The position numbers and the translations under genes were made by a program. The notes under the pieces are model-generated. The model searched no databases, was not told where the DNA came from, and was given only the letters and a program-made list of their open reading frames with translations. Shown piece by piece: positions 13,432 to 53,436 of a DNA stretch of 64,000 nucleotides (position 1 is its first letter; every line of letters begins with the position of its first letter). The stretch is from Patescibacteria group bacterium. GTDB lineage: Bacteria; Patescibacteriota; Patescibacteriia; JAZDEU01. The stretch is taken from assembly GCA_042568285.1 (NCBI GenBank), contig JBHPIX010000001.1:539-64538 (forward strand), read 5' to 3'.

Positions 13432-13485
13432 ATTGCTTTTATTTAGTGGAAAGGATATAATTAATTTAATATCATTGTCATCCCG

Positions 13486-13577
13486 CACTTGATGTCCGCC
13501 TAGGCTCGAGCTAGTCGAGACTGGCGGGATCTAACATCAAGTTTAACACTGGATTCCGCGTCAAGCGCGGAATGACA
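13486..13577. repeat. R-family composite palindromic repeat
   Basis: gtcatcccgcacttgatgtccgcctaggctcgagctagtcgagactggcgggat...gcggaatgaca. Confidence 0.7.
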
Positions 13578-16776: not shown

Positions 16777-16840
16777 TGTCATCCCGCGCTTGACGCGGGA
16801 TCCAATAGTGAGTAGATCCCGCATCAAGCGCGGGATGACA
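16777..16840. repeat. R-family double hairpin (tgtcatcccgcgcttgacgcgggat ... atcccgcatcaagcgcgggatgaca)
   Basis: in groES-groEL spacer. Confidence 0.7.
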
Positions 16841-16997: not shown

Positions 16998-18680
<1,683 letters not shown>

Positions 18681-23949: not shown

Positions 23950-24157
23950 AGTTTTTTATAATAGCTTAATTTTGGTTATTACTGGCGGAAAATATAAAGC
24001 CCGCCGCCAGCGATGGCTTACACCACCCATATTCCTTTCGGAATATGACCTGCTACAGGTGCTCTGACGACGAGCTTTCTATCCTGTAGCAGGTTTTTTT
24101 GCCATACCTCGCAGATTGACTACGAGGGTTAGGCAATTAAATTGTTAATGGTTTATG

Positions 24158-28375: not shown

Positions 28376-28573
28376 CTCACTATATTATAAATAGTGAGTG
28401 ATACTGGGGGGATGTGGGAATAAAATACTAAATTTATGATTGGGAAATACTGGAAAAACAGGAAGATTAAAAATGTCGTTTTAAAATGATATTTTTGGCT
28501 AAAATTAGCTAAAATATAGTAATTAAATACAAAATTTAGAAAGCTTAATCTCTAATTATTTCGGTAAAATTAT

Positions 28574-29170
28574 ATGAGCAAAATAATAAAAGAAAATTGC
28601 AAGGAATTAAGTATTTATAGGTTAAAAGAATGGGGTTATTTTGAGGCTGGCTGGCGTAAAAACGGGGGAATTACTTGGACAAGCCCGAATGGAGATAAAA
28701 GTAATATTAGTTTTGTAGTAGATTTGGGAGAACAAAATGATATGTTTATAGAGGTAGATTATAGGGTAAAAAATTGGGGAGAGGATGAATGGACTAATAT
28801 AAAACAGAAATATCCGATCGTTGCGACTACTTGCAATTATGGAGGCGTAAGATATTGGTTTGAATGTTCAATTTATCATAATGGTGTTTATTGCGGACGG
28901 AGAGTGGCTAAATTGTATTTGGGAGCAGGAAGCAAGTATTTTGCTTGCAGGCATTGCTATGGTTTAACTTATCGTTCCCGATTAGAAGGATTTGCTTATA
29001 CTGCTCCCTATTTAGACGAATACGCTGAGAAAACAAAAAGGTGGTATTATAACGGGAAGCCAACCAGACGGCATAGGCAGTATATAAAGAAAGAAAATAG
29101 TATGATGAGATATTGGGCAAGGTTTTTATTTAAGGCAAATGAAAGAATGGACGGGAGAATAAATAAATAA
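28574..29170 (+). CDS. hypothetical protein (198 aa, Cys/His-containing)
   Basis: ORF only. Confidence 0.3.
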   Translation: MSKIIKENCKELSIYRLKEWGYFEAGWRKNGGITWTSPNGDKSNISFVVDLGEQNDMFIEVDYRVKNWGEDEWTNIKQKYPIVATTCNYGGVRYWFECSIYHNGVYCGRRVAKLYLGAGSKYFACRHCYGLTYRSRLEGFAYTAPYLDEYAEKTKRWYYNGKPTRRHRQYIKKENSMMRYWARFLFKANERMDGRINK

Positions 29171-29239
29171 ATTAAATAAAATAAAATAAAATGAGGTGAA
29201 TGAGTTGGCTAAATGAATTTTATGGTGTATAATATAAAT

Positions 29240-29340
29240 GTTGACCCACACATAAACTAATAACCGAAGGTTTTTGTTTTGTCGCCCCAAATGGGCGGTT
29301 CTGCCGATAAATACTACCTTCGGGAAAGTGTGTTGGGTCA
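29240..29340. promoter_or_regulatory. 100-bp imperfect palindrome (gttgacccacaca ... tgtgttgggtcaac with nested ccgaaggt...accttcgg) directly upstream of the serine recombinase; candidate att / operator site
   Basis: read directly; large serine recombinase att sites are typically int-adjacent imperfect palindromes. Confidence 0.35.
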
Positions 29341-29384
29341 ACCAGAACCGTCCTTTTGAGTTTTTATACAACTCTAACAATATG

Positions 29385-31031
29385 AGACAAAATGACAATA
29401 AAATTAAATACTTCCTTTATGCTCGCAAATCTTCTGAAAGCGAAGACAGACAAATTCAATCTATCAAAGACCAAATTGATCGTTTAAATGATTTGGCGAA
29501 AGATTTGGATTTGGAAATAATAAAAACTTTTACAGAAGCGAAATCGGCTAAACAGCCAAACAATAGACCTATCTTTGACGATATGTTAAGCAGAATTGAA
29601 AAAGGAGATGCTGATGGGATATTGTGCTGGCAAATCAACCGCTTATCAAGAAATCCTGTTGATAGCGGTAAAATAAACTGGTTACTACAACAAGGAACTA
29701 TTAAAGCAATACAAACCATTGATAAACAATATCTCCCAGAAGATAATGTTTTGATGTTTAGCGTGGAAAGCGGAATGGCAAATCAGTTTATTTTGGATTT
29801 AAGAAAAAATACTATAAGAGGCTTGGAGAGCAAAATTCAAAAAGGTTGGTTTCCAAGCAGAGCTCCACAAGGTTATATAAATGATGTGATAGATAAAATT
29901 ATTATCAAAGACCCAGAAAGATTTAATTTAGTAAGAAAAATGTGGGATTTGATGTTGACTGGGAGTTATCAACCGCCCAAAATATTGGACATAGTTACTG
30001 ATGAATGGGGATATTTAACAAGGAAAACAAAAAGAGGCGGAGGCAAACCAATGTCAAAAAGTGAAATTTACAGAATATTTAATGACCCGTTTTATTATGG
30101 CTGTTTTAAATATAAAGACAAAATTTATAAAGGCAAGCATAATCCAATGATAACAGTTGATGAATATGAGAGGGTGCAGGAACTTTTAGGCAGAAAGGAT
30201 AAGCCAAAACAAAAGACCCACGAATTTGCTTTTACTGGGATTATTAGGTGCGGTAATTGCGGATGTTTAGTTACTGCCGAAGAAAAGAAAAAATTTATTA
30301 AAAGCACAAAAGAATATGCGACTTATACTTATTATCGTTGCACCAGAAGAAAAAGGGAAGTTAAATGCAAAGAGCCGACAATAAATTTAGATAATTTGCA
30401 AAATCAGATTATTAATGAAATTGATAAATATACTATTCCCCCAGAGTTTAGGGATTGGGCATTAGAGGTAATAAAAGGAAATAATGAAAAGGAAATAGAA
30501 ACTCGCAATCAAGCTTATGAAATGCTTAATAAAAAATATTTGGATTTACAAAAACAGTTAGATAATTTAACCAAATTGAGATTAAGAGATTTGATTAGTG
30601 ATGAGGAGTTTGTCAAAGAAAGAAAAGAATTGCAAAATCAAGTTATTAAAGTTAGAGAAAAATTAAATCAAAATCAAGATAGAGGGCAAAATTGGGTTGA
30701 TTTAATTGAAAGGGCTTTTAATTTTGCGACTTTGGCAAGAGAGAAATTTATAAACGGCGATTTACAGACTAAAAGAGAAATATTATCGGCATTAGGGCAA
30801 ACTTACACATTAAAGGGAGGTAAATTATACATTGAACCAATAGAATGGTTAGCTCCCATTTCTAACCTTGCTAAAATTGAACAAGATGAGGTTGTGAGGT
30901 TAGAACCAGCTAATTTTCGCTTAAATAAAGCAAAAAACAGGGCTTTAAACCCTGTAATTGCGAATTGGGGTGATAGATGGGATTTGAACCCACGACTTCC
31001 AGTACCACAAACTGGCGCTCTAACCAACTGA
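29385..31031 (+). CDS. large serine recombinase (resolvase/invertase catalytic domain + recombinase domain + zinc ribbon + coiled coil)
   Basis: YFLYARKSS catalytic Ser context, ...RLSRN, CGNCGC...CTRRK zinc ribbon; ORF has no stop until 31031, so the last ~22 codons are antisense to tRNA-His. Confidence 0.8.
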   Translation, partial: RQNDNKIKYFLYARKSSESEDRQIQSIKDQIDRLNDLAKDLDLEIIKTFTEAKSAKQPNNRPIFDDMLSRIEKGDADGILCWQINRLSRNPVDSGKINWLLQQGTIKAIQTIDKQYLPEDNVLMFSVESGMANQFILDLRKNTIRGLESKIQKGWFPSRAPQGYINDVIDKIIIKDPERFNLVRKMWDLMLTGSYQPPKILDIVTDEWGYLTRKTKRGGGKPMSKSEIYRIFNDPFYYGCFKYKDKIYKGKHNPMITVDEYERVQELLGRKDKPKQKTHEFAFTGIIRCGNCGCLVTAEEKKKFIKSTKEYATYTYYRCTRRKREVKCKEPTINLDNLQNQIINEIDKYTIPPEFRDWALEVIKGNNEKEIETRNQAYEMLNKKYLDLQKQLDNLTKLRLRDLISDEEFVKERKELQNQVIKVREKLNQNQDRGQNWVDLIERAFNFATLAREKFINGDLQTKREILSALGQTYTLKGGKLYIEPIEWLAPISNLAKIEQDEVVRLEPANFRLNKAKNRALNPVIANWGDRWDLNPRLPVPQTGALTN

Positions 31032-31043
31032 GCTACTATCACC
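30966..31043 (-). tRNA. tRNA-His (GTG) with extra 5' G and encoded CCA
   Basis: cloverleaf read by eye: GGTGATAG acceptor, anticodon loop TTGTGGT, T-arm GTGGGTTCAAATCCCAT. Confidence 0.8.
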
Positions 31044-31070
31044 ATAATTTAATTTTAGATTGTAAATAGT

Positions 31071-31141
31071 GTCTCCGGAGGGAATCGAACCCCCATAACC
31101 AGCTTAGAAGGCTGGTGTTCTATCCGTTGAACTACGGAGAC
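31071..31141 (-). tRNA. tRNA-Arg (TCT)
   Basis: GTCTCCG acceptor, anticodon loop CTTCTAA, T-arm GGGGGTTCGATTCCCTC. Confidence 0.8.
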
Positions 31142-31376: not shown

Positions 31377-34040
31377 TTAACTTCTCAACTTCTTTTCAGC
31401 CTCTTCAAATTTAATACTTAACAACCTTGAAATGCCGTCATCTCCCATTGAAACTCCGTATAATAATTTTGCTTTTTGCATAGTTGCCCTGTTATGAGTT
31501 ATAACAATAAATTGAGATTTATTGGATAATTCACCAATTATTTTAGCGAGATTATGTGAATTTGCTTCATCAAGAGCCGCGTCTACTTCATCCAAAACAA
31601 TAAATGGGGAAGGGTTATTTGAAATAATAGCGCAAAGTAGCGCGATCGCGGTAAGCGCTCTTTCACCTCCTGATAGCATATTTATACTGTTGATTTTTTT
31701 TCCAGGAGGCGCTGCTTGTATTTCAATGCCAAATACAACTTTTTGTTTGTAAATTTTTAATGGATTTTTTTCTTTTACATCATTATTTTCTGCGATTATA
31801 TTTTCTTCTGATTCTGATGTTTGTTGGTTTTCTTCAGTTTCTTTTTCATCTTCCGCAATTTTTATTAAATTAGATTTGCCACCACCGAATAGAAGACTAA
31901 AATATTTTTGAAATTCTTTATTTATGGCATTAAATGATTTTTCAAATTTATTTTTAATAGTTAAATCAAGTTCTTTAATAATTTTTTCAAGGGAAGTAAT
32001 CGCTTTGCTTAAGTCTGTTGTTTGTTCTGATAAAAAAGTAAACCTTTCTTTTGTCTCTGTATATTCAGTTTTTGTTTCAGGATCAATTCCTCCAATAAAT
32101 TCTAATTGTTCCTTTATTTTTTTAATTTGCGGAAGCAGGTTTTCAGGGTGTTCTATAAATTCAAAATTTTCGCTTGTAAGGTGAATTTCATCTTGTTTTA
32201 TTTCATACATTAAATCCTCTTTTTTTGTTGTGATTTTTGCCAGCTCAATTCTAATTGTATTAGTTTCTTCAGACAGCTTATTAAATTTCATTTGATGCTC
32301 CTGATATTGTTTTTGCAGTTCAAACAAGTTTTCTTTTTTTATTTCTTCTTTTATATTAAATTCGTTTATTGCATTTTTTAATTTATTGATTTTTTTGTCT
32401 AATTCTGAAATTTGATTTTCTATTTTTTGATTTTTCGCTTCTAATTCTTTTAATTTTTGTTGTTCATTAACTGGTTTTTCTTTAGCTTCGGAAATTTCAC
32501 GAAATAAATTTTTTTCTTCCGTTTCCATTTTTTGCAATGATTCTTTGAGAGTTTTCTCCCTTTCTTTTTTACCATTAATTTCTATTAGCAGTTTATTAAA
32601 CGAAGCAATAATGTTTTCTCTTTCTTGAATGGCGATTTTAACATTATCTTTGGCGATTAGAATTTTTTGGGCGTTTTGGTCATCTTTTGGGCATAATTCT
32701 TTTAGTATTTCGTTTAAATTTTTGTCTATTTGCTTCGCTTCTTTTATTATATTATTTAACTCTTCTATATCTTTGGCTGATTCTAATTTTTTTACTAAAT
32801 TTTGATAAGAATAATATATCAAAGAGATGCTTTTTTCTAATTCTTTATCGTTTATCTTTTTTACATTATTATTCGCCTGCAAGTTATCAAGGCATTCTTG
32901 CGCCTTTTGTTCATCTTTCGTCGCTTTTTCTTTTTTTTCGCTAATTTTTTTAATGTTTCTATCTAACCTTGAGATTATATCAGAAATTGATGATATGGAA
33001 TCTTCTATTTTTTCTTTTTCTTTTTTAATCTCGTCATATTTTTTTTCCAGCCAAATTAAATTTACTTTTCCAATTTTTTTATACTCTATTTCTTTATTTC
33101 CTTTTATAACAGCTTGTTGTCTTAATAGTAGATTTTTTTCATCAATTAAGATGTCATATTTATTTCTAAGAATATTAAATGCCTCTGATCGTGTTTCTTC
33201 CTCTTTTTGTTTTTGTATGGCTGTTTCTATTGCATGCAATTCTTTCTTTAACTCATTTTCTTGTTTAATTAGTATATCTAAGTCAGTTTGAACGGTTTCT
33301 TGATGAGAGTTTAATTGTTTTTTTATAGTTCCGTAATAATTTAGTTGTAATTTTCTTAGATTAGAAGTTAAGCTTTCTCGTTTTTCTAATTTTTTCATTT
33401 GCCTTGTAAGAGATTTTAGGCGAGGGTCAATTTCTTTAAGCAGAAGATCTGTTTGCGATAAATTATCATGAGCATTAATTAGTTTATTTAATGATTGATT
33501 TCTTTTAATTTGATATTCTTTAACTCCTGCGGCTTCATCAAAAAATTCTTTTCTTTCATTCGGAGGCGCAATGAGAAAATAGTCTATCATTCCTTGACCG
33601 ATAACGCTGTAAGTCCTTTGCCCAATTTGAGCTTTTGCTAAAAGCATTTGGATGTCTAACAGTCTAACTTTATTTTTATTAATTAAATATTCGCTTTCTC
33701 CATTTCTGTATAGTCGTCTTGTTAAAACAAGCTCAGAATAATCAATTGGCGCTTTGCCGCTTTCATTATTCAAATACAAAGAAACTTCGGCAAATCCAAG
33801 CCGAGTTTTTTTATCAGATCCAGCAAAAATAACATCTTCGCTTTTTTTCCCGCGTAGAGTTTTTAAGCTTTGTTCCCCGAGAACCCATCTTATTGCGTCT
33901 GCAATATTAGATTTGCCACTCCCATTAGGACCGACAATGGCTGTAATAGTATGCTCATCAGCTTTTTCTTTTGGGAATTGCAGGACAGTTTTTTCAGCAA
34001 ATGATTTGAATCCTTTTATTTCTATTTTCTGTAAATACAT
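31377..34040 (-). CDS. smc: SMC-family chromosome segregation ATPase (887 aa)
   Basis: N-terminal Walker A GPNGSGKSN, C-terminal signature LSGGERALTAIALL and Walker B FIVLDEVDAALD, long coiled coils. Confidence 0.85.
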   Translation of the reverse strand: MYLQKIEIKGFKSFAEKTVLQFPKEKADEHTITAIVGPNGSGKSNIADAIRWVLGEQSLKTLRGKKSEDVIFAGSDKKTRLGFAEVSLYLNNESGKAPIDYSELVLTRRLYRNGESEYLINKNKVRLLDIQMLLAKAQIGQRTYSVIGQGMIDYFLIAPPNERKEFFDEAAGVKEYQIKRNQSLNKLINAHDNLSQTDLLLKEIDPRLKSLTRQMKKLEKRESLTSNLRKLQLNYYGTIKKQLNSHQETVQTDLDILIKQENELKKELHAIETAIQKQKEEETRSEAFNILRNKYDILIDEKNLLLRQQAVIKGNKEIEYKKIGKVNLIWLEKKYDEIKKEKEKIEDSISSISDIISRLDRNIKKISEKKEKATKDEQKAQECLDNLQANNNVKKINDKELEKSISLIYYSYQNLVKKLESAKDIEELNNIIKEAKQIDKNLNEILKELCPKDDQNAQKILIAKDNVKIAIQERENIIASFNKLLIEINGKKEREKTLKESLQKMETEEKNLFREISEAKEKPVNEQQKLKELEAKNQKIENQISELDKKINKLKNAINEFNIKEEIKKENLFELQKQYQEHQMKFNKLSEETNTIRIELAKITTKKEDLMYEIKQDEIHLTSENFEFIEHPENLLPQIKKIKEQLEFIGGIDPETKTEYTETKERFTFLSEQTTDLSKAITSLEKIIKELDLTIKNKFEKSFNAINKEFQKYFSLLFGGGKSNLIKIAEDEKETEENQQTSESEENIIAENNDVKEKNPLKIYKQKVVFGIEIQAAPPGKKINSINMLSGGERALTAIALLCAIISNNPSPFIVLDEVDAALDEANSHNLAKIIGELSNKSQFIVITHNRATMQKAKLLYGVSMGDDGISRLLSIKFEEAEKKLRS

Positions 34041-34216
34041 AGTTATATTTTACAATATATAACTTTGTAAAGCAAGGATATTTTTTATTGCCAGTCCTCT
34101 TGACGGATTCTGCATAAAAGCATAAGATAAAGCCAACAAGAAAGGGGGGGATAGCTCATTAAAAATATTGTATAACAAAAATTTATTTAAAACATTTAAG
34201 CTTAAAGGAGAAAAAG

Positions 34217-34837
34217 ATGGCAATTGAAAGAGCTTTAATAAGCGTATCAGATAAAACAGGAATAGTGAAATTTGCAAAAGAGCTGATAGAGTTGACTGGA
34301 TGTGACATTATTTCAACAGGAGGGACAGCTGAAATTTTACTGGAGGATGGTATTCCAATAATTCCAATTAAAAATGTTTAAGGCAATCCAGAATCTTTTG
34401 GCGGAAGAATGAAAACTATTAGTTTTGAAGTTGAATCCGCTATTTTGTATAGACGCAACAATGAAATGGATGTTTCAGACGCTGATGCGTTAGGCATTAT
34501 GCCAATTGATATAGTTATATGCAATCTATATCCTTTTGAAAGAACTATCGCGCGTCCAGATTGCACATTTGAACAGGCAATTGAAAATATTGATATTGGC
34601 GGACCGACAATGTTGCGCGCCGCAGCTAAAAATTATCAGGATGTGGTTGTTGTTATAGATCCTTATGATTATTATACTATAATAAAAGAGTTGAGAGACC
34701 GAAAGGGAAGTATTTCCATTGAAACCAGAGAACAGTTAATGCTAAAAGTGTTTGCGCGAACAAAAAATTATGATACTGCGATTTATAATTATTTAAACCA
34801 ACAATATTTAAACCAAGAATTAGGGAATGCTTATTGA
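34217..34837 (+). pseudogene. purH: PurH N-terminal (IMP cyclohydrolase / MGS-like) domain gene interrupted by in-frame TAA at about 34379-34381
   Basis: [12 protein letters not shown]...STGGTA and GRMKTISFEV...IDIVICNLYPF...NIDIGGPTMLRAAAKN align across the stop to E. coli PurH residues 1-200. Confidence 0.5.
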
Positions 34838-34889
34838 TTCAAAATTGTGATATTATTTTCTCCACTAAAAAATTGTTCTGTCTAAACTA

Positions 34890-34927
34890 TAAAGCCCCAA
34901 GGCATTTATGCGATTGGGGCTTTTTTT
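34890..34927 (+). terminator. rho-independent terminator (aagccccaa...ttggggcttttttt)
   Basis: stem + T-run. Confidence 0.6.
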
Positions 34928-34948
34928 ATTTTTATTTTTGAATTTTAA

Positions 34949-34985
34949 AATCCCCCTGTCCCCCCTTATAAAGGGGGGAACTATC
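34949..34985. repeat. GC-rich hairpin element (aatccccctgtcccccc-ttataaa-ggggggaactatc)
   Basis: family member. Confidence 0.6.
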
Positions 34986-35020
34986 TAATAAATCCTGTGG
35001 CATAATTTTTTTCTGCTACT

Positions 35021-35095
35021 GGATCCCGTGTCAATCCCGCCGAATCGGCCTGCCTGCCGGTAGGCAAGGCAAGCACGGGATGACAATCCGTGTCC
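35021..35095. repeat. R-family repeat (ggatcccgtgtcaatcccgccgaatcggcctgcctgccggtaggcaaggcaagcacgggatgaca)
   Basis: same module as 43490-43556. Confidence 0.65.
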
Positions 35096-35114
35096 ATCCG
35101 TTTCTAATCTGTGT

Positions 35115-38100
35115 CTATCCGTCTTGAGCCCGTCTTTTCCAAACCAAGACTCCCAGCACGACAGCTAAAATCCCAACCGCTATAGATAAAACCCACTGTA
35201 ATATTTTTTTTATGCCGATAGCGCGATCAGCGTCTTTTTGTAAATTTTCTATTGTTTGCGCCAGTTTTATTTCAGGCACTTCCTCAACTGTTTCTTGCTC
35301 AGAAATTTCATCTACATTTAAAGAAATTTCAATATCCTCTTCGCCTTCCAAATCTACGCCGATAACTTCTGTCTCCCATTCGCCGTCTTCGGGATCTTCA
35401 ACAACCACAATTGCTCCCATGCCGTCCTGCATGGGCTCGCCTGAATATTTTTTTCCAGACGGACTTATTAAAGCAAACTCAATAACTGGTTTGTCTTCAG
35501 CCATCGCTGGCGAGATATTCCAGAGCCTATCAGACTCTCTAAAGTGCTTTTTGTCATTCCGCGCTTGATGTCCGCCTAGGCTCGACTCCGCCTCGGATCG
35601 CCGAGTGCGAGACGGGATAGTCGAGACTGGCGGAATCCAGTTAGTTAATCTGGATTGCAAAATTTCTGGATCCCGCGTCAAGCGCGGGATGACATTCCCA
35701 GAATACTCTGATAGTAACGCGGACCCAAACCTCATAACCCCAGTTAAAATTTGCCTGCCCCCGCTTCTAACCGCCTCCGCTGTTTGGCGCGCAGTTTCTT
35801 CTACTCTCTCACCAGTTTCAATAATGGTTTTAGCGGCTTCTTCCGCTATATTTTCAGCTGTTTCAACAGCTTGCTCTGTTTTTTCCTGAATTGCGTCCCG
35901 CATCGCTTCGCCAGTTTGACTTGTCGCCTGTACTACAAATTTTTTTGTTTTCTTAACTCCTCTAACGAGAGTGGTCTTTGTTGTATTTGCTACTTGCCTA
36001 AAAATATTCACCATTTCATTGGATATTCTATCAGCTTCTCTTGTAAATTCATAAGCTAAATTACCTCCTTTTACAATAGCATTATCAATAGAAGCTCCCA
36101 ACGGTCTCATTGACTGATAAACTGATTCCAGATCAATAATCTCTTGGGTTCCCGGAATACGGATTACTGAATGGCAATCACCGATAGTGGCTTCGCACCA
36201 ATCACTCGCGGTATTATGATAAATTGCGAACATCTTTCCTTCTGAATATATACCGAAAATCGCCTTGCCATAAAGTCCAGCGATATTAATGCCGTCAGTC
36301 GCTAATTTTAATTTGTCATTAATATCTCTGGCGAAATCGCTAACTTTTTCAAAAACATCGCCAAAAATAGTTTCCTTGCCTAATAAACTGGCGCCCCAAT
36401 CTACTGCCGCGCCAGCTAATCCAAGCTGATCCATTAGCTTGCCAAAATTTGTGGTAGTATCAATTAATTGGTTGCCCATATTTTTGCTTTTATCAAAAAT
36501 ATTGTCATTATTGTAAACAAAATTTTTCTCTGCTATTAATGCTTCTCTGATTTGATTAATTTTTGTTTGATATCCATAATAAGGAACATCGCTATTTGGC
36601 ACAGCTCCAACAAATTTATTTTGATGCCATATAGCAACTTGATAATCAACCATTTGGTTAGAAACAGCTTCTTTAAAATTCGTCATAAAAGCTAATTTAT
36701 ATAAATTTTTATATTTATGTTTTACAGTCTTTTCTAATTCATCCATATAGCGCTTCAAACTTCCCTGCGAGTTTTCAAACGCCCTGTCAGCTTCCATTTT
36801 AAAATCCGCGATTTGCGCGGAACTTTCTATTCCCAAACTATTCAATACAGATTCCAAACTATGTCCTTCCAACTGTCCTCCTACTAATTCAGTAGCGGCA
36901 GTTAATTTATCCGCGACACCTCTTAAATTTACATTAAGTTTTCCTGACAAGCTATTTAATCTTTGGTGCGCGACAATCTTCGCTTTAAACAATAAGAACG
37001 TTCTCATCAACTGCCATGTCGCTTCTCCAAGAACATCCGCCATTTCTGTTCCTGCCTCAATAGTCGCAACTCCTAATTTTTCTATGGCAATAGAACTTTT
37101 TAATAAAGCGATTGCTTTTACTTTATTGCCCCCGTCCTTTTCTTCTTCTACGGAAATCATTAAGGTTCTATGCATATCATGCGGGCTAAAATTACCTTCC
37201 AGTCCAGGCACATATTTTTTATCATTTAATGGCATTATACTTCCATAAATATTGCTATACTCATTAATATATTCAATTACATTTTCTTCCATCGCGCATT
37301 TTTTTTCCCAGCAAAAATCAGACTTGCATTGCGAACTTTCAGAACATGCGTCGCCATTATTAAACAATAAACATTCTCTTCTTGTTGTGGCGCAGTCAGG
37401 ACATGAACAATCTTCATTATCCTGGCATTCTCCATCACCGCACCAAGTGTATCCTAGGGGTCTGCATACAGACTCTACGCAATTATTTGATGCGCAGTCT
37501 TGTTGCTCGTCACAACTTTGTCCGTTTTCTTTTTTAACTTCTTCTTCCTCTCGCTCTTCTGCACCTTCTTCCACTTTTAATTCATCTTCTACTCCATTCT
37601 CATCGTTCCCCTCTTGAGAGGGGTCAGGGGTGTGTTCTGTTTCAGCAGAAACACTTACCCTTAATTTTACACCTATAGCTTCAATTGTAGTGTAATGATA
37701 GAATTTAACTGTATTAGATCCAGCTTGAAAAAACTTTGTGGCGTCAATCCATTTATTTAAACCGCTTGCTTCTGTCACATTTTTTCCAAGCGAAGCATCA
37801 TAAACTTGTCCGTTTGACGATGAATATGGAGAAAATTCCCAAACTGTTTTATCATTCACTTTTACATATCCATTTTTTCCCATATATTTTTTAACATAGT
37901 TAGAACTGTTCTTAGCATAATGGGTAATTTCTACTTTGGTAAACCGGCTCGGAAGATTAACTGTCCATATATGAGGCGCGCGCGAAGCTGGAATAACTCC
38001 TCCGTCTTTCATTTCTCCACTTGATCCAAATGACATAGAATTTATTGCTGTAAATTCATCATCCTCGCACTGTCCGCAATCTTTTACGCAATCAACGCAT

Positions 38101-40034
38101 GTTTCTCCGCTATCGCAAAATGTGTCTCCACAATATGTTTCAGAGCTTCTGCATTTACTGTGAACACAATGGTTATTTTTGCATTCTGAATTAGCTCCGC
38201 ATGTTTCTCCAGTATCTTTCAATGAACATGCTCCACAATCAGAAGTACAGCTTGAACAAGACTCTCCTCTATCGCAAAATGTATCGCCGCAATATGTTTC
38301 AGAGCTTCTGCATTTGCCATGAACACAATGCCAATTTTTACATTCCCCGCTATTAACGCAATCAGAACCGTCTGGCTTACTGCATAATCCGCAATCATCA
38401 GAACAATCATCGCATGTTTCACCTGTATCGCAGTTACTGTCTCCGCAGTATGTTGAAGAGCTTCTGCATTTTCCGTGAACACAATAATTGTTCGCGCATT
38501 CTGAATTAGCGTTGCATACAGCTCCATCAATTTTTAATGAACATGACCCGCAGTCGGAAGTACAGCTTGAACAAGATTCGTCGCTATCGCAAAATGTATC
38601 CCCGCAATATGTAGAATTTTCGCGACATATATTATGAACACAATAATAATCCCCGCAATCAATCTGCGAAAGGCATTGCTCTCCTATTCCAGCTCGGCAG
38701 TTTCCGCAGTCCTGCTGGCACACATCGCACTCTTCGCCATTGTCGCAATGACCGTCTCCGCAGTATGGGGATGAAGATCTGCACCTGCTATGCAAACAAT
38801 ATGGACTTTCGCACTCTGAATTGTTTGAGCAAACCTCGCCGTCTGCTTTTAAATTTAATTCGCAATAATAATTAGAAGTATCGCATAAATAACCGCTATC
38901 GCAATGATCATTTATTGAGCAACATGTTTTGCCAGCTTCGCAACATACATAATTTGCGCAATTTTCTGATTTGCAAGTTGAAGATGCATAGCAGACTTCT
39001 CCAATTTCTTTTCTTGTATCCACTTTTTCAACGCAATATTTATTATAATGGCATTCATATCCAGTTGAACAATCATCATCGTCATAACAGCACGTTCCAG
39101 AATCACAACATTTTCCATTGTTGCAGTATCCACTAGCGCATTCTTCTGAAGATGCGCAGACAGAACCATTTACTTTTAAGTATGTATACTCGCATAAATA
39201 ATTTGAATTGCATAAACCATTATTGCCACAATCATTATCAGTTTCGCAACACCATCCAACGCCTCCGCAGCATATTTTTTTTGAATAATCGCTTCCAAGC
39301 ACATAATCACAAATACTTGATTCGCATTCGCTATATTGAGAGCAAGCTTCGCCATTTGCCTTTTTAACTTTATCTTCGCAATAATAATTATCATTGCAAA
39401 TAGTATTCAATCCAAAAAGATCTCCGCAGTCGTTGCTTGTCTTGCAACATTCTTTGCCAGCTTCGCAACAAGTTCTATGCTGGCAATTATCTGATACGCA
39501 GTCTGTGTTAGAGCTACAACTCCCGCCATTCGCGGTCGTAGCGTCTGATTCGCAATAGCATCCGCCGGATTCGCCATATAGGGTGCAAGTAGCCGCGTAT
39601 GGACAATGGTCATTATTGAAACAGCATACGCTTCCCGTTTTACAGCATATATTATTACTGCAATTTCCTGATTCACATTCTGCGTCTTCGCCTGAATCGC
39701 ATGTCATAGAATTTATTACACTGCCGGCGCAATCTTCTGGACAAATGGTATATCCTTCATCGCAATAGCCGTCTCCGCAAAAATAATAATGATCTCTGCA
39801 AATATTATGGATGCAATAATCCGCATCGCAGTCCCATGATGTTGTACAGCTTTCACCCAGAGCGTTCGTCGCAAAAGAAACATTCGCGAACAGCGACATT
39901 GCGAATATTGCAAAAACAAAAACAGCGATAAACTTTAATGAACTAAAAGTACAATCGCTGTTTGCAGATAACTGTTTTACGAAATGCCACAATTTTTCGT
40001 AAAATGTTTGTGGCGTTTTGATAGAGTGTTTCAT
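35115..40034 (-). CDS. giant (1639 aa) Cys-rich modular surface protein with N-terminal signal/TM and C-terminal TM anchor
   Basis: dozens of ~45-aa Cys-rich repeats (GxxCxxxxxCxSxxC...CC), a second repeat class (YCGDxxCDxGExCxxCxxDCGxC), ~700-aa helical region, C-terminal hydrophobic helix. Confidence 0.6.
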   Translation of the reverse strand: MKHSIKTPQTFYEKLWHFVKQLSANSDCTFSSLKFIAVFVFAIFAMSLFANVSFATNALGESCTTSWDCDADYCIHNICRDHYYFCGDGYCDEGYTICPEDCAGSVINSMTCDSGEDAECESGNCSNNICCKTGSVCCFNNDHCPYAATCTLYGESGGCYCESDATTANGGSCSSNTDCVSDNCQHRTCCEAGKECCKTSNDCGDLFGLNTICNDNYYCEDKVKKANGEACSQYSECESSICDYVLGSDYSKKICCGGVGWCCETDNDCGNNGLCNSNYLCEYTYLKVNGSVCASSEECASGYCNNGKCCDSGTCCYDDDDCSTGYECHYNKYCVEKVDTRKEIGEVCYASSTCKSENCANYVCCEAGKTCCSINDHCDSGYLCDTSNYYCELNLKADGEVCSNNSECESPYCLHSRCRSSSPYCGDGHCDNGEECDVCQQDCGNCRAGIGEQCLSQIDCGDYYCVHNICRENSTYCGDTFCDSDESCSSCTSDCGSCSLKIDGAVCNANSECANNYCVHGKCRSSSTYCGDSNCDTGETCDDCSDDCGLCSKPDGSDCVNSGECKNWHCVHGKCRSSETYCGDTFCDRGESCSSCTSDCGACSLKDTGETCGANSECKNNHCVHSKCRSSETYCGDTFCDSGETCVDCVKDCGQCEDDEFTAINSMSFGSSGEMKDGGVIPASRAPHIWTVNLPSRFTKVEITHYAKNSSNYVKKYMGKNGYVKVNDKTVWEFSPYSSSNGQVYDASLGKNVTEASGLNKWIDATKFFQAGSNTVKFYHYTTIEAIGVKLRVSVSAETEHTPDPSQEGNDENGVEDELKVEEGAEEREEEEVKKENGQSCDEQQDCASNNCVESVCRPLGYTWCGDGECQDNEDCSCPDCATTRRECLLFNNGDACSESSQCKSDFCWEKKCAMEENVIEYINEYSNIYGSIMPLNDKKYVPGLEGNFSPHDMHRTLMISVEEEKDGGNKVKAIALLKSSIAIEKLGVATIEAGTEMADVLGEATWQLMRTFLLFKAKIVAHQRLNSLSGKLNVNLRGVADKLTAATELVGGQLEGHSLESVLNSLGIESSAQIADFKMEADRAFENSQGSLKRYMDELEKTVKHKYKNLYKLAFMTNFKEAVSNQMVDYQVAIWHQNKFVGAVPNSDVPYYGYQTKINQIREALIAEKNFVYNNDNIFDKSKNMGNQLIDTTTNFGKLMDQLGLAGAAVDWGASLLGKETIFGDVFEKVSDFARDINDKLKLATDGINIAGLYGKAIFGIYSEGKMFAIYHNTASDWCEATIGDCHSVIRIPGTQEIIDLESVYQSMRPLGASIDNAIVKGGNLAYEFTREADRISNEMVNIFRQVANTTKTTLVRGVKKTKKFVVQATSQTGEAMRDAIQEKTEQAVETAENIAEEAAKTIIETGERVEETARQTAEAVRSGGRQILTGVMRFGSALLSEYSGNVIPRLTRDPEILQSRLTNWIPPVSTIPSRTRRSEAESSLGGHQARNDKKHFRESDRLWNISPAMAEDKPVIEFALISPSGKKYSGEPMQDGMGAIVVVEDPEDGEWETEVIGVDLEGEEDIEISLNVDEISEQETVEEVPEIKLAQTIENLQKDADRAIGIKKILQWVLSIAVGILAVVLGVLVWKRRAQDG
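35552..35694. repeat. R-family composite repeat inserted in-frame inside the giant protein CDS
   Basis: translated as VIPRLTRDPE...NWIPPVSTIPSRTRRSEAESSLGGHQ, the same peptide as in the MiaB-like gene. Confidence 0.8.
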
Positions 40035-40561
40035 ATAGTTTGTATTTTAAAATTATTTTTTATACGAAATCCAATTTCATTTGCAGGTTCTTTTTGCGGC
40101 GAAATTAGTTGTTTTATAGCTTCAAAAATAATTTTAAATTGTTGGTCGTATTTTTTTTCTAATTTTTGTATTTTATTTTTAAGTTCTTTATTGGTTAATA
40201 ATATTTCCCTCAATTTTACAAAAGTCCTTATAATTTGGATGTTAACCTTTATGGCTTTTTCACTATTTAAAACACTGGATAGCATAGCCACTCCTTGTTC
40301 TGTGAAAGCATAGGGAAGATATCTTTGTCCGCCCCAACTTGAGGTCACAATTTGTGACCTCAAAATTTGAAATTCCTCGTTTGTTAGTTGAAACATAAAA
40401 TCAATGGGGAAACGTTTGATATTTCGTCTGATGGCTTGGTTAAGAACTTTTGTTTCAACTCCGTAAAGTTTAGCAATGTCTTTATCCAAAATTATTTTTT
40501 TGCCACGGATATAGAATATTTTATCCATTATTCTTTCTTGGGGTATTAGATTTTTTGACAT
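40031..40561 (-). CDS. ORF6N-domain (KilA-N-like, DNA-binding) protein
   Basis: IYxIRGxKIxLDxDxAxLYGVETKVLNQAxxRNxxRFPxDFMFQLTxEE ... VAMLSSVL consensus of ORF6N; 4-nt overlap with the giant gene start. Confidence 0.6.
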   Translation of the reverse strand: MSKNLIPQERIMDKIFYIRGKKIILDKDIAKLYGVETKVLNQAIRRNIKRFPIDFMFQLTNEEFQILRSQIVTSSWGGQRYLPYAFTEQGVAMLSSVLNSEKAIKVNIQIIRTFVKLREILLTNKELKNKIQKLEKKYDQQFKIIFEAIKQLISPQKEPANEIGFRIKNNFKIQTI

Positions 40562-43401: not shown

Positions 43402-43556
43402 TTGTCATCCCGCAAATCGTAGCAACGATTATGTCCGCTTCGGCTTGAATCGAGACGAGCGGGATCCACTTTTAAATCAAATTTCTGAATCCCGTGTCAA
43501 GCCCGCCGAATTGGCCTGCCTGCCGGTAGGCAAGGCGAGGCAAGCACGGGATGACA
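43402..43556. repeat. R-family composite repeat (three modules)
   Basis: gtcatcccgcaaatcgtagcaacgattatg..., ...cgtgtcaagcccgccgaattggcctgcctgccggtaggcaaggcgaggcaagcacgggatgaca. Confidence 0.7.
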
Positions 43557-46459: not shown

Positions 46460-46753
46460 ATGATTACTCAAATTTTTAAAAAGAAAATAACTCCCGTATT
46501 AAAACGGCAAGGGGTAACCAAAGCTGCCATTTTTGGTTCTTTCGCAAGAGGAGATTGTAAAAAAAATAGCGATATTGACATTTTAGTAAGTTTAGAAAAA
46601 GATAAAACATTGCTTGACCTTATAGGATTAAAAATTGAATTGGAAAATAAGCTTAAAAGAAAAGTTGATGTTTTAACATATAATGGAATTAACCCTCGTT
46701 TAAAGGATATAATTTTAAATGAACAAAAAATAATTTATGAAAAAAGATCTTAA
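46460..46753 (+). CDS. MNT-type nucleotidyltransferase antitoxin
   Basis: IFGSFARGDCKKNSDIDILV GS...D.D motif. Confidence 0.75.
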   Translation: MITQIFKKKITPVLKRQGVTKAAIFGSFARGDCKKNSDIDILVSLEKDKTLLDLIGLKIELENKLKRKVDVLTYNGINPRLKDIILNEQKIIYEKRS

Positions 46754-47075
46754 TATTTTCATAGAACATATCTTGGAAAGCATTACTGAAATTGAAAAAT
46801 ACACAAAAAATATTTCTTGTGCCAAATTTTTAAAAACCACACAAATTCAAGACGCGGTTATTAGAAGATTAGAAATCATAGGAGAGGCGGTAAAAAATTT
46901 ACCACTTTCTTTAAAAAAACAATCTCCATATATACCATGGCAAAAAATTGCTGGATTAAGAGATGTCCTAATTCATGAATATTTCGGAGTTGATATAGAC
47001 TTAGTTTGGAAAATTATAAAGAAAGATCTGCCAAAATTCAAAAAGGAAATTATAGAATTGACAAAATTAATATAA
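46737..47075 (+). CDS. HepT/DUF86 toxin
   Basis: overlaps MNT gene by 17 nt; DUF86 R-x4-HxY-like region RDVLIHEYF. Confidence 0.7.
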   Translation: MKKDLNIFIEHILESITEIEKYTKNISCAKFLKTTQIQDAVIRRLEIIGEAVKNLPLSLKKQSPYIPWQKIAGLRDVLIHEYFGVDIDLVWKIIKKDLPKFKKEIIELTKLI

Positions 47076-49751: not shown

Positions 49752-49813
49752 TGTCATCCCGCGCTTGACGCGGGATCCATGAATTTAGATCCCGCGTCAA
49801 GCGCGGGATGACA
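49752..49813. repeat. R-family double hairpin abutting the stop codon of the preceding gene
   Basis: tgtcatcccgcgcttgacgcgggatcc...gatcccgcgtcaagcgcgggatgaca. Confidence 0.7.
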
Positions 49814-51281: not shown

Positions 51282-52787
51282 ATGCAAAATTATTATATAA
51301 CTACATACGGATGCCAGATGAATAAAAGCGACAGCGAACGAATTGCAACTGTTTTAGAAAATGTTGGATATAAAGTATGTTCAAAAGAAGAAGATGCTGA
51401 TTTAATAGTGGTAGTTTCCTGCTCTGTTAGACAAACTGCTGTTGATAGAATTTACGGAAGGGGAGTAAAGTATAAAAAATTAGAAAAGGAAAATCCTAAT
51501 TTGAAAACAATTTTAACTGGATGTCTTTTAGATGAAGACAAGAAAAAATTAGCAGATAAGTTTGATGTGATCTGTGATATAAGAGAGATAGAAAAAATAT
51601 CAGACTTAATAAAATGCAAGAAAATTGTCATCCCGCGCTTGACGCGGGATCCAGAATTTACTAAATTTTGTTTAAATAACTGGATTCCGCCAGTCTCGAC
51701 TATCCCGTCTCGCACTCGGCGATCCGAGGCGGAGTCGAGCCTAGGCGGACATCAAGTGCCGTGCCTACCCTGCCTACCGGACAGGCAGGCGGCAGGCAGG
51801 CGGAATGACAAAAAGGTGATTGATTGCGTTTTTAGACAGTCTGAACCGATCGATTCCATACATAACAAGAAAAAATTAGATTACTCATACCTCTCAATTC
51901 CACCAAAACACTCCTCGCTATTCAAGGCATACATTCCAATAATGACAGGATGTAATAATTTTTGCTCATACTGCGTTGTTCCATATACAAGAGGTAGAGA
52001 ATACTCGCGTCCCGCTGATGAAATTTTAAACGAAGCGCGCCAGTTAATCCAAAATGGCTACAAAGAAATCACGCTAATCGGGCAGAATGTTAATAGTTAT
52101 AATGGAAAAATAAACTTCCCATCCCTCCTTCGCGAAATAAATTTTATCCCGGGAGATTTTTGGATTAGATTTGCCACAAGTCATCCAAAAGATATGAGTG
52201 ACGAACTGATAACCACTATATCAGAATGTGAAAAAATAACTCCATACATACATTTGCCAATTCAATCTGGAAGCGATAAAATTCTTAAAGCAATGAATCG
52301 TAAATATACAAAAAATCATTATCTAAATTTAATAAAAAAAATAAAGTCTAAAATTCCTAATGTAATGCTATCAACAGATATTATAGTAGGATTTCCTAAT
52401 GAGACAGAAGCAGATTTTAATGAAACTGTTGATGTATTTAAAAAAGTGAAATATTCTATGGCATATATTGCTAAATATTCTACTCGTAAAGGTACTGTCG
52501 CTGGCTCTTTAGCGGACAATGTTACGCAAGAAGAAAAAGCTAGGCGAGAAAATGTTTTAACTGACATTTTAAAACAAACTGCTTTAGAAAATAATAAAAA
52601 ATTTATAGGTAAAACTGTAAAAGTGTTAATTGAAAAAAAATTTGGGAATTACTATATTGGAAAAACTGATCAATTTATAAATGTAAAAGTAGATCTATCT
52701 GAAAGGCGAGATGCGCAAGTATCATCTGTCGTATTCATAAACTGCAAAATTATGAAAGTTGCTTCATTTGGCATGGAAGCGAAGTAA
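51282..52787 (+). CDS. MiaB/RimO-family radical-SAM methylthiotransferase carrying a ~60-aa repeat-encoded insertion
   Basis: N-terminal MTTase YGCQMN, radical-SAM CNNFCSYC, TRAM-like C-terminus; insertion between MTTase and radical-SAM domains. Confidence 0.8.
   Translation: MQNYYITTYGCQMNKSDSERIATVLENVGYKVCSKEEDADLIVVVSCSVRQTAVDRIYGRGVKYKKLEKENPNLKTILTGCLLDEDKKKLADKFDVICDIREIEKISDLIKCKKIVIPRLTRDPEFTKFCLNNWIPPVSTIPSRTRRSEAESSLGGHQVPCLPCLPDRQAAGRRNDKKVIDCVFRQSEPIDSIHNKKKLDYSYLSIPPKHSSLFKAYIPIMTGCNNFCSYCVVPYTRGREYSRPADEILNEARQLIQNGYKEITLIGQNVNSYNGKINFPSLLREINFIPGDFWIRFATSHPKDMSDELITTISECEKITPYIHLPIQSGSDKILKAMNRKYTKNHYLNLIKKIKSKIPNVMLSTDIIVGFPNETEADFNETVDVFKKVKYSMAYIAKYSTRKGTVAGSLADNVTQEEKARRENVLTDILKQTALENNKKFIGKTVKVLIEKKFGNYYIGKTDQFINVKVDLSERRDAQVSSVVFINCKIMKVASFGMEAK
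51626..51810. repeat. R-family composite repeat inserted in-frame in the MiaB-like CDS
   Basis: encodes VIPRLTRDPE..NWIPPVSTIPSRTRRSEAESSLGGHQ.. identical to the segment in the giant protein. Confidence 0.8.
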
Positions 52788-53268: not shown

Positions 53269-53393
53269 AGAATTAAATTTATTTAATTAAATCTATAATA
53301 TTATAAGTATAGCAGAAAAGTGATTTATAGGCAATACATTATATTATTTGATGTTATATTTTTTTTATGATAAAGTATATTGTATATATTGAT

Positions 53394-53420: not shown

Positions 53421-53436
53421 ATACCTATTTATGCAA

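What the first reader, a model, noticed from the sequence alone, without database searches (positions are those of the whole stretch)
35552..35694. Second in-frame copy of the R-family element inside the giant Cys-rich surface protein
Listed separately so the two host genes can be inspected independently. The element lies in the C-terminal alpha-helical part of the giant protein, just before the membrane anchor.
Basis: seen in the sequence. Interest (0 to 1): 0.55.

Follow-up and report, generated by a model that had tools for sequence, protein, structure and literature searches.

The report
Palindromic repeat inserted in-frame in gene
A 143-base, GC-rich palindromic repeat sits inside the gene for a giant surface protein of an uncultured Patescibacteria bacterium without breaking its reading frame, the same thing long known from Rickettsia, and the repeat's end hairpins are of a type recently shown to be cut by small Ssn nucleases.

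Summary
Window 35552-35694 is a 143-nt element (56.6% GC; window 32.3%) bounded by TGTCAT...ATGACA. It lies in the 1639-aa ORF 35115-40034 (minus strand) and is read through as residues 1448-1494 (VIPRLTRDPE...HQARND).

A sister copy, 92% identical, sits in the same orientation and frame in the MiaB gene (51626-51810). About 11 further copies in the window are intergenic. Only one of the six frames of each genic copy is open, and that is the frame used.

Relatives lack the insert. These are P0124, the only homologue found for the giant protein's C-terminal part, and P0005, the closest MiaB (74-75% identical).

The basic unit is two inverted 27-nt hairpins, and long forms carry extra palindromes nested in a hairpin loop. 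The hairpin matches the published Ssn-related motif (SRM/NTS), with 6 strict matches against 0.01 expected. The same 26-mer occurs in over 119 loci across many phyla, mostly as doublets and sometimes in-frame in genes.

Best reading: a non-autonomous SRM-type repeat has inserted into a permissive linker and is translated as a disordered loop, as with Rickettsia palindromic elements. Mobilisation by an Ssn nuclease is inferred only, since no such gene lies in the window. This is a new member of a known kind, of moderate interest.

The parts
35552..35694 (-). The finding: a 143-nt composite palindromic element (long form of the family), translated in the host frame as residues 1448-1494, VIPRLTRDPEILQSRLTNWIPPVSTIPSRTRRSEAESSLGGHQARND
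   Evidence: It is 92% identical to the MiaB copy.
35666..35694 (-). Intact terminal hairpin, TGTCATCCCGCGCTTGACGCGGGATCCAG on the coding strand. It matches the published Ssn-related motif (SRM) and encodes VIPRLTRDPE.
   Evidence: SRM pattern match. Across 14 hairpin units all stem positions pair, and 3 of 8 pairs show compensatory changes.
35641..35667 (-). Spacer between the two hairpins. It is homologous to the spacer of the plain 83-nt doublet in the related contig L120 (7867-7949).
35552..35640 (-). Second (inverted) hairpin, whose loop is expanded by nested palindromes. Outer half-hairpin 35552-35568, closed by 35631-35640; module B arms 35569-35585 and 35620-35630; module C 35586-35619.
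   Evidence: Module B alone is present in the copies at 6687-6788 and 13476-13577.
35115..40034 (-). Host gene: a 1639-aa Cys-rich protein with N- and C-terminal hydrophobic segments (NCBI MFC1612738.1, hypothetical protein ACFL23_00205, Patescibacteria group bacterium)
   Evidence: No Pfam family. Homologue P0124.
51626..51810 (+). Sister copy (185 nt) in-frame in MiaB, residues 116-176. It has the same orientation and frame and carries one extra nested GC-rich module at 51758-51801.
51282..52787 (+). MiaB/RimO-type methylthiotransferase gene hosting the sister copy, in the linker between the UPF0004 and Radical_SAM domains
49752..49813 (.). Plain short doublet (62 nt) of the same family, just after the stop of ORF 47147-49747. 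The related contig L120 has a doublet at the corresponding place.
13476..13577 (.). Intergenic 102-nt copy with module B only, 97% identical to the inverted copy at 6687-6788
16777..16840 (.). Plain 64-nt doublet in the groES-groEL spacer

Best explanation
The 143-nt stretch is one copy of a non-autonomous, interspersed palindromic repeat. Its basic unit is a pair of inverted 27-nt hairpins (TGTCATCCCGCGCTTGACGCGGGATCC) of the Ssn-related-motif (SRM/NTS) type. In this copy the second hairpin has grown by two extra palindromes nested in its loop.

The copy inserted into a linker of the giant surface-protein gene, between its long non-Cys region and a conserved C-terminal domain. In this orientation and frame the element has no stop codon and the downstream frame is kept. 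The gene therefore stays intact and the element is translated as a 47-residue hydrophilic loop rich in Arg, Ser, Pro and Thr. The loop need have no function of its own. Copies in other frames, or at less tolerant sites, would have been removed by selection. This is why only 2 of about 13 copies in this gene-dense window are inside genes and both use the one open frame.

Shown here: the repeat nature, the hairpin structure, the SRM match, the in-frame read-through, and the absence of the insert in homologues. Inferred: that the element spreads as single-stranded DNA with the help of an Ssn-type GIY-YIG nuclease encoded elsewhere in the genome, and that the peptide is actually made.
For: Repeat family: about 13 elements in 64 kb, and the two genic copies are 92% identical although their host genes are unrelated.

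Structure: fold z-scores are -8.6 and -7.5. In 14 hairpin units 100% of stem positions pair and 3 of 8 pairs have compensatory changes; 0 of 500 shuffles reach the observed percentage paired or covariation score.

SRM identity: there are 6 strict matches to HGTCWYN(0-2)YYVSBRHN(0-5)WNVSBRGN(0-2)RNCYNB against 0.01 expected, one of them at 35666-35694.

Frame: only 1 of 6 frames is open in each genic copy, and that frame is the one used.

Insertion: P0124 aligns on both sides of the site (37% identity over giant 832-1374, 52% over 1507-1596) and lacks the insert. MiaB's inter-domain linker is 122 aa against 53 aa in PDB 7mjv. The closest MiaB, P0005 (74-75% identical, 435 aa), lacks the element.

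Tolerance: in the AlphaFold2 model of MiaB (mean pLDDT 81.9) the only low-confidence segment is residues 115-198, which contains the insert.

Generality: the 26-mer occurs in over 119 loci from many phyla. Of these, 63% are followed by an inverted partner hairpin against 3% in control windows. In-frame doublets occur in a MurB-like gene of Daviesbacteria, an SDR-like gene of Nitrospirae and a HemN-like gene of Bacteroidales. 12 of 120 MiaB homologues carry hairpin-type peptides, confirmed at the DNA level in L123.

Literature: SRM hairpins are bound and cut as ssDNA by Ssn nucleases, and 81% of genomes with more than 200 SRMs encode one (PMC11893778).
Against: No Ssn-like or other GIY-YIG gene, and no transposase that could act on these ends, was found in the 64-kb window. 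None was found in the roughly 15 Patescibacteria loci fetched either. The rest of the genome could not be read.

No target-site duplication is visible, and no exact empty site at the DNA level is available. The closest relatives are too diverged in these linkers.

Translation of the insert is not shown. The model of the giant protein's C-terminus is too poor to place the insert in a structure (mean pLDDT 39). The sequence is a single metagenome assembly with no second assembly to compare.
Confidence: 0.8

Rival explanations
1. The shared 47-61 residue segment is a real protein module, such as a binding or sorting peptide, that was recruited by both proteins. The DNA palindrome would be incidental.
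For: The peptide is nearly identical in two proteins and lies in the same frame. In the giant protein it lies in the extracellular or linker part.
Against: Most copies are intergenic. The similarity is at the nucleotide level (92%) between unrelated genes. The DNA is a strong palindrome with compensatory stem changes. An exhaustive search of 1.84 billion representative proteins found the peptide only in this protein itself. Homologues of both hosts lack it. It is predicted to be disordered in MiaB.
Confidence: 0.04
2. It is an assembly artefact. A short repeat made the assembler join unrelated pieces or insert a repeat copy that is not there.
For: The source is a single metagenome-assembled contig, and both host proteins are singletons in the databases. 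The repeat is about as long as a short read.
Against: The sequences on both sides belong to one gene and run in the order seen in homologues. P0124 shows this for the giant protein and all MiaBs show it for the sister copy. A mis-join would not keep both colinearity and frame twice. Independent assemblies of other organisms show the same kind of in-frame hairpin inserts.
Confidence: 0.04
3. The insert has inactivated or is inactivating the gene, which would be a young pseudogene. Alternatively it is removed before translation, so the peptide is never made.
For: Translation is not shown. A hairpin of -70.8 kcal/mol in the mRNA could hinder ribosomes. The giant gene is accessory: it is absent between the ORF6N and SMC genes in the related contig L120.
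Against: The ORF stays open for about 145 codons after the insert, through a domain 52% identical to P0124 and the membrane anchor. MiaB keeps its catalytic Cys motifs and folds confidently on both sides of the insert. Both copies use the only open frame. At 143 nt the element is too short for an intein or a group I or II intron, and no RNA family matches it.
Confidence: 0.07
4. The element is kept inside the gene because it does something at the DNA or RNA level. As a cut site for an Ssn nuclease on incoming single-stranded DNA, it could limit or shape recombination in a variable surface-protein gene, as NTS repeats do around variable genes in Neisseria. It could also act as an mRNA processing or stability signal.
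For: NTS/SRM repeats cluster around variable genes and lower transformation in Neisseria (PMC11893778). The host is an accessory surface protein. The intergenic copies sit in the spacers between genes, as REP elements do.
Against: The sister copy is in a housekeeping tRNA-modification gene. No Ssn gene is seen. Nothing here separates selection for such a role from mere tolerance.
Confidence: 0.1

Closest known systems
Ssn-related motifs (SRM) / Neisseria transformation sequence (NTS, including dRS3), the hairpin repeats cut by Ssn GIY-YIG single-strand nucleases (Chenal et al. 2025, PMC11893778)
   Same: The terminal hairpin has the GTCAT leader, a GC-rich semi-palindrome and a trailing C plus YRG. 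It matches the published degenerate SRM pattern. It is present in many copies and is found across distant phyla.
   Different: The paper describes single hairpins around genes. A term search of it found no mention of in-frame insertion in coding sequence or of nested composite forms. Here the unit is an inverted doublet with nested palindromes, and it is translated. No ssn gene was found in the window.
Rickettsia palindromic elements (RPE), 'protein-coding palindromes' (Ogata et al. 2000 and 2002, as summarised in PMC10969869, PMC1779305 and PMC1166351)
   Same: These are interspersed palindromic repeats of 100-150 bp, found both between genes and in-frame within unrelated genes, where they encode a conserved peptide and are judged compatible with the host protein's fold. 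The behaviour here is the same.
   Different: The host is a Patescibacteria bacterium, not a member of Rickettsiales. Sequence relatedness to the RPE families was not tested. The hairpin-doublet architecture with nested modules is described here from this family only. The Ssn paper lists Rickettsia among genomes with more than 300 SRMs, so the two may be connected, but that is not shown.
REP / BIME / REPIN elements mobilised by RAYT (IS200/IS605-like) transposases
   Same: They are short hairpins arranged as inverted pairs in intergenic spacers, present in many copies, and have no target duplication.
   Different: No GTAG-type REP head was seen in the aligned units. No RAYT (Y1 transposase) domain appeared in the ORFs scanned. 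The hairpin matches the SRM pattern instead.
Bacterial MITEs such as Correia, ERIC and QMITE1/2 (PMC10969869, PMC5896051)
   Same: They are small, non-coding, have terminal inverted repeats, fold stably and occasionally make in-frame fusions with genes.
   Different: No direct repeats flank the copies and no parent insertion sequence with these ends was found. The ends are themselves complete hairpins.

Membership tests
Ssn-related motif (SRM/NTS-like) hairpin repeats | Matches the published degenerate search sequence HGTCWYN(0-2)YYVSBRHN(0-5)WNVSBRGN(0-2)RNCYNB | tested here: met
   35666-35694 (minus strand) and 51626-51654 (plus strand) match. There are 6 matches in the window against 0.01 expected in 100 dinucleotide shuffles. 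Variants with a TCC stem miss the strict pattern by one stem base but align without gaps.
Ssn-related motif (SRM/NTS-like) hairpin repeats | Hairpin-forming semi-palindrome with oriented, non-palindromic flanks | tested here: met
   In 14 units 100% of stem positions pair and 3 of 8 pairs have compensatory changes. TGTCAT upstream and ATC downstream are invariant.
Ssn-related motif (SRM/NTS-like) hairpin repeats | A cd10448 GIY-YIG ssn gene in the same genome, often flanked by the motif | tested here: inconclusive
   None in the 64-kb window by motif scan, tblastn or HMM. The rest of the genome is not available. 5 of 119 loci from other phyla have such a gene within 8 kb of the hairpin.
Ssn-related motif (SRM/NTS-like) hairpin repeats | Bound and cut as single-stranded DNA by the cognate Ssn | not testable with these tools
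   This needs purified protein and oligonucleotides.
Rickettsia palindromic elements (RPE) | Interspersed palindromic repeat of 100-150 bp found in both intergenic and coding regions | tested here: met
   The genic copies are 143 and 185 nt, and about 11 copies are intergenic.
Rickettsia palindromic elements (RPE) | In-frame insertion in unrelated genes, encoding a conserved peptide | tested here: met
   The two copies have the same frame and orientation in the giant protein and in MiaB. Homologues lack the insert.
Rickettsia palindromic elements (RPE) | Insert sits at a site compatible with the fold of the host protein | tested here: met
   MiaB: the insert lies in the inter-domain linker and in the only low-pLDDT segment, 115-198. 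Giant protein: inconclusive, because the model is poor.
Rickettsia palindromic elements (RPE) | Sequence similarity to the RPE-1 to RPE-10 families of Rickettsiales | not tested
   No RPE models or Rickettsia genomes were within reach. The host is a Patescibacteria bacterium, so this is an analogue rather than a family member unless similarity is shown.
Classical MITE (derived from an insertion sequence) | Terminal inverted repeats | tested here: met
   TGTCATYCCGCGCTTGA at both ends.
Classical MITE (derived from an insertion sequence) | Target-site duplications and a parent IS with the same ends | tested here: not met
   No direct repeats flank any of the copies read. No transposase domain appeared in the roughly 34 ORFs scanned. 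There is no match in plasmids.
REP/REPIN-RAYT | REP head tetranucleotide (GTAG-like) and a RAYT gene flanked by REPs | tested here: not met
   The units begin with an invariant TGTCAT. No Y1 transposase was found in the ORFs scanned. The doublet arrangement is nevertheless REPIN-like.

The most novel reading that the evidence does not exclude
Inverted doublets of SRM-type hairpins would be a class of 'protein-coding palindromes' spanning many phyla. The same hairpins that Ssn GIY-YIG nucleases recognise would be what inserts in-frame into genes in Patescibacteria, Nitrospirota, Bacteroidota and Campylobacterota, and possibly what Rickettsia RPEs are built from. The RPE phenomenon would then be general, and Ssn would be a candidate for the enzyme that spreads these elements. 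In gene-poor Patescibacteria the inserts would be a regular source of new loops in proteins, and MiaB would be a recurrent host.
Probability: 0.35. Interest if true: 0.7.

Novelty: new member of a known kind. Interest (0 to 1): 0.5.

Why it matters
In-frame 'selfish' palindromes have been treated mostly as a Rickettsia curiosity, and the enzyme that spreads them has not been identified. Here the same behaviour appears in an unrelated, reduced-genome lineage. The element's ends belong to the hairpin class now known to be cut by Ssn nucleases. That gives a concrete hypothesis to test: that Ssn spreads protein-coding palindromes.

It also has practical consequences. Peptides such as VIPRLTRDP..., WIPASAGMT or CHPELVSGS in proteins from metagenome-assembled genomes are repeat-derived inserts. 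They should not be treated as lineage-specific domains in annotation, alignment or structure prediction.

Tried and rejected
- **Exact look-up of the source contig.** Tried for both host proteins; not on record. The source was identified through cluster names instead.
- **Homologue search with the C-terminal 760 aa.** It returned nothing, not even the protein itself. The full-length search then found P0124. I have no explanation for the first result.
- **Exhaustive peptide search.** Only the protein itself and two chance repeat proteins were found.
- **Nested modules elsewhere.** Exact scans of JGI metagenome contigs for module C and for the junction with module B gave 0 hits each. blastn against plasmids gave no match. 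These modules seem specific to this lineage.
- **Rfam.** No family matches the element.
- **Search for the mobilising enzyme.** A GIY-YIG motif scan, tblastn and an HMM built from five Ssn-like ORFs found nothing in the window or in the Patescibacteria loci. Pfam scans of about 34 ORFs showed no transposase. They did show a serine recombinase at 29274-31031, which acts on other kinds of sites.
- **Target-site duplications.** None seen.
- **Exact empty site at the DNA level.** The MiaB linker of the close relative L120 carries a different palindromic insert, so the boundary cannot be fixed to the base.
- **Structure of the giant protein's C-terminus.** Mean pLDDT is 39, which is not usable.
- **Ideas rejected.** Intein, self-splicing intron and programmed frameshift were rejected because the frame is open, the element is only 143 nt and no RNA family matches. 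A shared functional domain was rejected because of the intergenic copies and the nucleotide-level identity.
Full report
**Source and setting.** The window is from a metagenome-assembled Patescibacteria genome. Both host proteins are in NCBI as MFC1612738.1 (hypothetical protein ACFL23_00205, 1639 aa) and MFC1612750.1 (MiaB/RimO family), on a contig of 75,985 bp. Each is a singleton at 90% identity. The window is 32% GC. It also carries a LOOT RNA and three tRNAs.

**The observation.** Window 35552-35694 runs from TGTCAT to ATGACA. It is 143 nt and 56.6% GC, and it folds far better than shuffled sequence. As DNA the energy is -43.7 kcal/mol (z = -8.6). As RNA of the coding strand it is -70.8 kcal/mol (z = -7.5). 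None of 200 shuffles does as well.

The element lies inside ORF 35115-40034 on the minus strand and is read through as residues 1448-1494, VIPRLTRDPEILQSRLTNWIPPVSTIPSRTRRSEAESSLGGHQARND. Of its six reading frames only this one is free of stop codons.

The host protein has 126 Cys (18% of residues 60-660) and hydrophobic segments at about 28-56 and 1608-1634. It has no Pfam domain.

**It is a repeat.** Positions 35561-35694 are 92% complementary to 51626-51759. That second copy lies in the MiaB gene (ORF 51282-52787) and is read in the same orientation and frame (VIPRLTRDPEFTKFCLNNWIPPVSTIPSRTRRSEAESSLGGHQ...RRND). It too has only one open frame.

The terminal motif occurs 20 times in the window and marks about 13 elements. 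The other 11 lie between genes. Examples are just after the stop of ORF 47147-49747, in the groES-groEL spacer, and downstream of the giant gene itself. In a gene-dense window, 2 of 13 copies inside genes with both in the single open frame is what selection against disruptive insertions would leave.

**Anatomy.** The short forms (58-64 nt; 12346-12405, 16777-16840, 49752-49813) are two inverted copies of a 27-nt hairpin, TGTCATCCCGCGCTTGACGCGGGATCC, separated by a short spacer.

In 14 hairpin units every stem position pairs, and 3 of the 8 pairs show compensatory double changes. None of 500 shuffles reaches the observed percentage paired or covariation score. Versions with the 3' partners slid by 1-3 columns pair at only 12-50%.

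The long forms keep one hairpin intact. In the loop of the other they carry extra palindromes:
- Module B is present at 6687-6788 and 13476-13577.
- Modules B and C are present in the two genic copies.
- A further GC-rich module is present in the MiaB copy and, in similar form, in the copies at 35019-35085 and 43485-43556.

A related contig, L120, has a plain 83-nt doublet whose spacer is homologous to the spacer of the genic copies. On this reading the 143-nt form is that doublet plus about 60 nt nested in one loop.

**Evidence that it is an insertion.**

*Giant protein.* A full-length search found one homologue covering the C-terminal part, P0124 (998 aa). Giant residues 832-1374 align with P0124 residues 334-852 at 37% identity. 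Residues 1507-1596 align with 877-966 at 52% identity. The element-encoded residues have no counterpart in between.

*MiaB.* The UPF0004 domain (residues 4-96) and the Radical_SAM domain (218-384) are separated by a 122-aa linker, against 53 aa in the solved MiaB structure 7mjv. The closest homologue, P0005 (435 aa, 74-75% identical), lacks the element.

An AlphaFold2 model of MiaB built on 76 sequences has mean pLDDT 81.9. Its only low-confidence segment is residues 115-198, which contains the insert (116-176). The domains on both sides are above 90. A model of the giant protein's C-terminus was too poor to use (mean pLDDT 39).

**What the hairpin is.** A literature search by sequence led to Chenal et al. 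2025 (PMC11893778). That paper defines the Neisseria transformation sequence, CGTCATTCCCGCGMAVGCGGGAATCYRG, and a degenerate Ssn-related motif (SRM). It shows that small GIY-YIG proteins (Ssn, cd10448) bind and cut these hairpins as single-stranded DNA.

The published SRM pattern matches 6 times in the window against 0.01 expected. The matches include the intact hairpin of the giant copy (35666-35694) and that of the MiaB copy.

They span Patescibacteria, Nitrospirota, Bacteroidota, Planctomycetota, Campylobacterota, Coxiellaceae, Chloroflexota and one Methanosarcinales MAG. In 82 of 131 cases (63%) an inverted partner hairpin follows within 200 nt, against 3 of 94 control windows. The median total length is 77.5 nt. 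The doublet is therefore the usual form well beyond this genome.

Five of the 119 loci encode an Ssn-like protein within 8 kb. In one case, L115, it lies directly beside the hairpin.

**In-frame insertion is not unique to this genome.** In the fetched loci, doublets or single hairpins are read through in several genes:
- a MurB-like gene of a Daviesbacteria MAG (L085);
- an SDR-like gene of a Nitrospirae MAG (L059, VIPAKAGIQ...WIPCQARNDK);
- a HemN-like gene of a Bacteroidales MAG (L068, two inserts);
- a Sulfurimonas glycosyltransferase-like ORF (L023);
- a membrane protein (L057).

These gene names come from reading the translations, not from a family search.

Among the 120 closest MiaB homologues, 12 carry hairpin-type peptides such as NWIPASAGMT or CHPELVSGS. 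For P0048 the hairpins were confirmed in the DNA (L123). The MiaB linker of the close relative L120 carries a different palindromic insert. A term search of the Ssn paper found no mention of in-frame insertion. Searches found no paper linking Rickettsia palindromic elements with GIY-YIG proteins, and none describing such inserts in the Candidate Phyla Radiation.

**Mechanism.** The most likely account is that a non-autonomous SRM-type doublet inserted into a permissive linker, stayed open by frame, and is translated as a disordered loop.

The spread of such elements by an Ssn-type nuclease acting on single-stranded hairpins is an inference from the literature. It is not shown here. No GIY-YIG gene or suitable transposase lies in the window or in the Patescibacteria loci fetched, no target duplication is seen, and the rest of the genome was out of reach.

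Rivals were considered and rated low:
- *Shared functional module.* Most copies are intergenic, the identity is at the nucleotide level, and the peptide is absent from 1.84 billion representative proteins apart from the protein itself.
- *Assembly artefact.* The flanks are colinear with homologues at two independent sites.
- *Pseudogene or removal before translation.* The ORF stays open through conserved downstream domains.
- *Role at the DNA or RNA level.* This remains possible but untested.

**Comparison with known systems.** In behaviour this is the Rickettsia palindromic element phenomenon: palindromic repeats of 100-150 bp found both between genes and in-frame within unrelated genes (PMC10969869, PMC1779305, PMC1166351). 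In sequence its hairpins are SRM/NTS-type.

It resembles REP/REPIN doublets in arrangement but lacks their head motif and a RAYT gene. It lacks the target duplications and parent insertion sequence of classical MITEs.

I file it as a new member of a known kind. New here are the host phylum, the link between SRM hairpins and in-frame inserts, and the nested composite form.

**Context of the host gene.** In the related contig L120 the ORF6N and SMC genes are adjacent. In the window the giant gene lies between them. Its GC content is also raised, at 0.37-0.41. The giant gene is therefore accessory in this lineage.

Noticed in passing
window 37595-37635 (minus strand, inside the giant ORF); other copies at 439-486, 16956-17003 and 54561-54608: A second, unrelated palindromic repeat family (ACACACCCCTAACCCCTCTCAAGAGGGGAAC) is also read through in-frame in the giant protein, as ...HTPDPSQEGNDENG... 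at about residue 800. The giant protein therefore hosts at least two repeat families.
   Followed up: partly
L120 10259-10450 (MiaB linker of the closest relative, JGI Ga0117905_1001913): The same MiaB linker carries a different palindromic insert, a CCCC...GGGG hairpin read as PLSPSSKEGEPCSLPFKGKVGVG. This linker seems to be a recurrent landing site for repeats in different lineages.
   Followed up: partly
MiaB homologues P0025, P0039, P0048, P0059, P0070, P0107, P0116 and others; L123 1492-1513 and 1846-1866: 12 of 120 MiaB homologues carry hairpin-type peptides (NWIPASAGMT near residue 240, CHPELVSGS or CHSEFISES near residues 100-136). Two hairpins were confirmed in the DNA of L123.
   Followed up: partly
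L085 3150-4178 (-), L059 4535-5827 (+), L068 2277-3650 (+), L023 2-2416 (-), L057 2305-3564 (+): Hairpin doublets of the same class are read through in long ORFs of genomes from other phyla. By reading the translations these look MurB-like, SDR-like, HemN-like, glycosyltransferase-like and like a membrane protein. The host ORFs were not checked against protein families.
   Followed up: partly
L015 (Methanosarcinales archaeon MAG) 366-391; viral contigs L124-L129: The exact 26-mer hairpin also occurs in an archaeal MAG and in 6 stretches of IMG/VR viral contigs, some with several copies per contig.
   Followed up: no
window 31377-40561 compared with L120 11427-14644: The ORF6N and SMC genes are adjacent in the relative, but in the window they are separated by the giant gene plus about 1 kb. 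This block also lies inverted and upstream of MiaB here, so there has been a rearrangement and the giant gene is accessory.
   Followed up: partly
window 24012-24135 (-): A LOOT RNA (RF03000) match at 97.5 bits, well above its gathering score of 46.4.
   Followed up: no
window 26240-31141: A Toprim-domain protein (26240-28375) and a large serine recombinase (29274-31031) end at tRNA-His and tRNA-Arg (30966-31141). This looks like the edge of an integrated element.
   Followed up: no
window 13572 and 53380: The first possible start codon of the TrmD ORF (ATG at 13572) lies in the terminal ATGACA of an element. The TTG start listed for ORF 53380-54237 lies just upstream of a solo hairpin (53393-53421), so the hairpin falls inside the listed ORF. 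The true starts may be further downstream, or the repeats may supply the 5' ends.
   Followed up: no
window 58681-58852, 62497-62668 and 63744-63911; also 60110-60156 and 6362-6414: Another interspersed repeat family of about 115-170 nt (85-94% identity, in both orientations) shares the core GGGACTGTTGCCGAATGCTCCTTTAGGCA. It is unrelated to the finding.
   Followed up: no
window 22816-23267: Three tandem copies of a 114-nt period (73-82% identical) lie inside ORF 22852-23949, which has no Pfam hit.
   Followed up: no
window 46460-47075: A nucleotidyltransferase/HepT (HEPN) toxin-antitoxin pair lies between the ORF at 44644-46422 (by position the counterpart of the tRNA-synthetase gene in L120) and the 866-aa ORF. 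The relative L120 has a HicB (HicAB in L121) module at that place, and an NTase/HEPN pair elsewhere.
   Followed up: no
tool behaviour: The homologue search with the C-terminal 760 aa of the giant protein returned no hit at all, not even the protein itself. The full-length query found the protein itself and P0124. I cannot explain the first result.
   Followed up: partly
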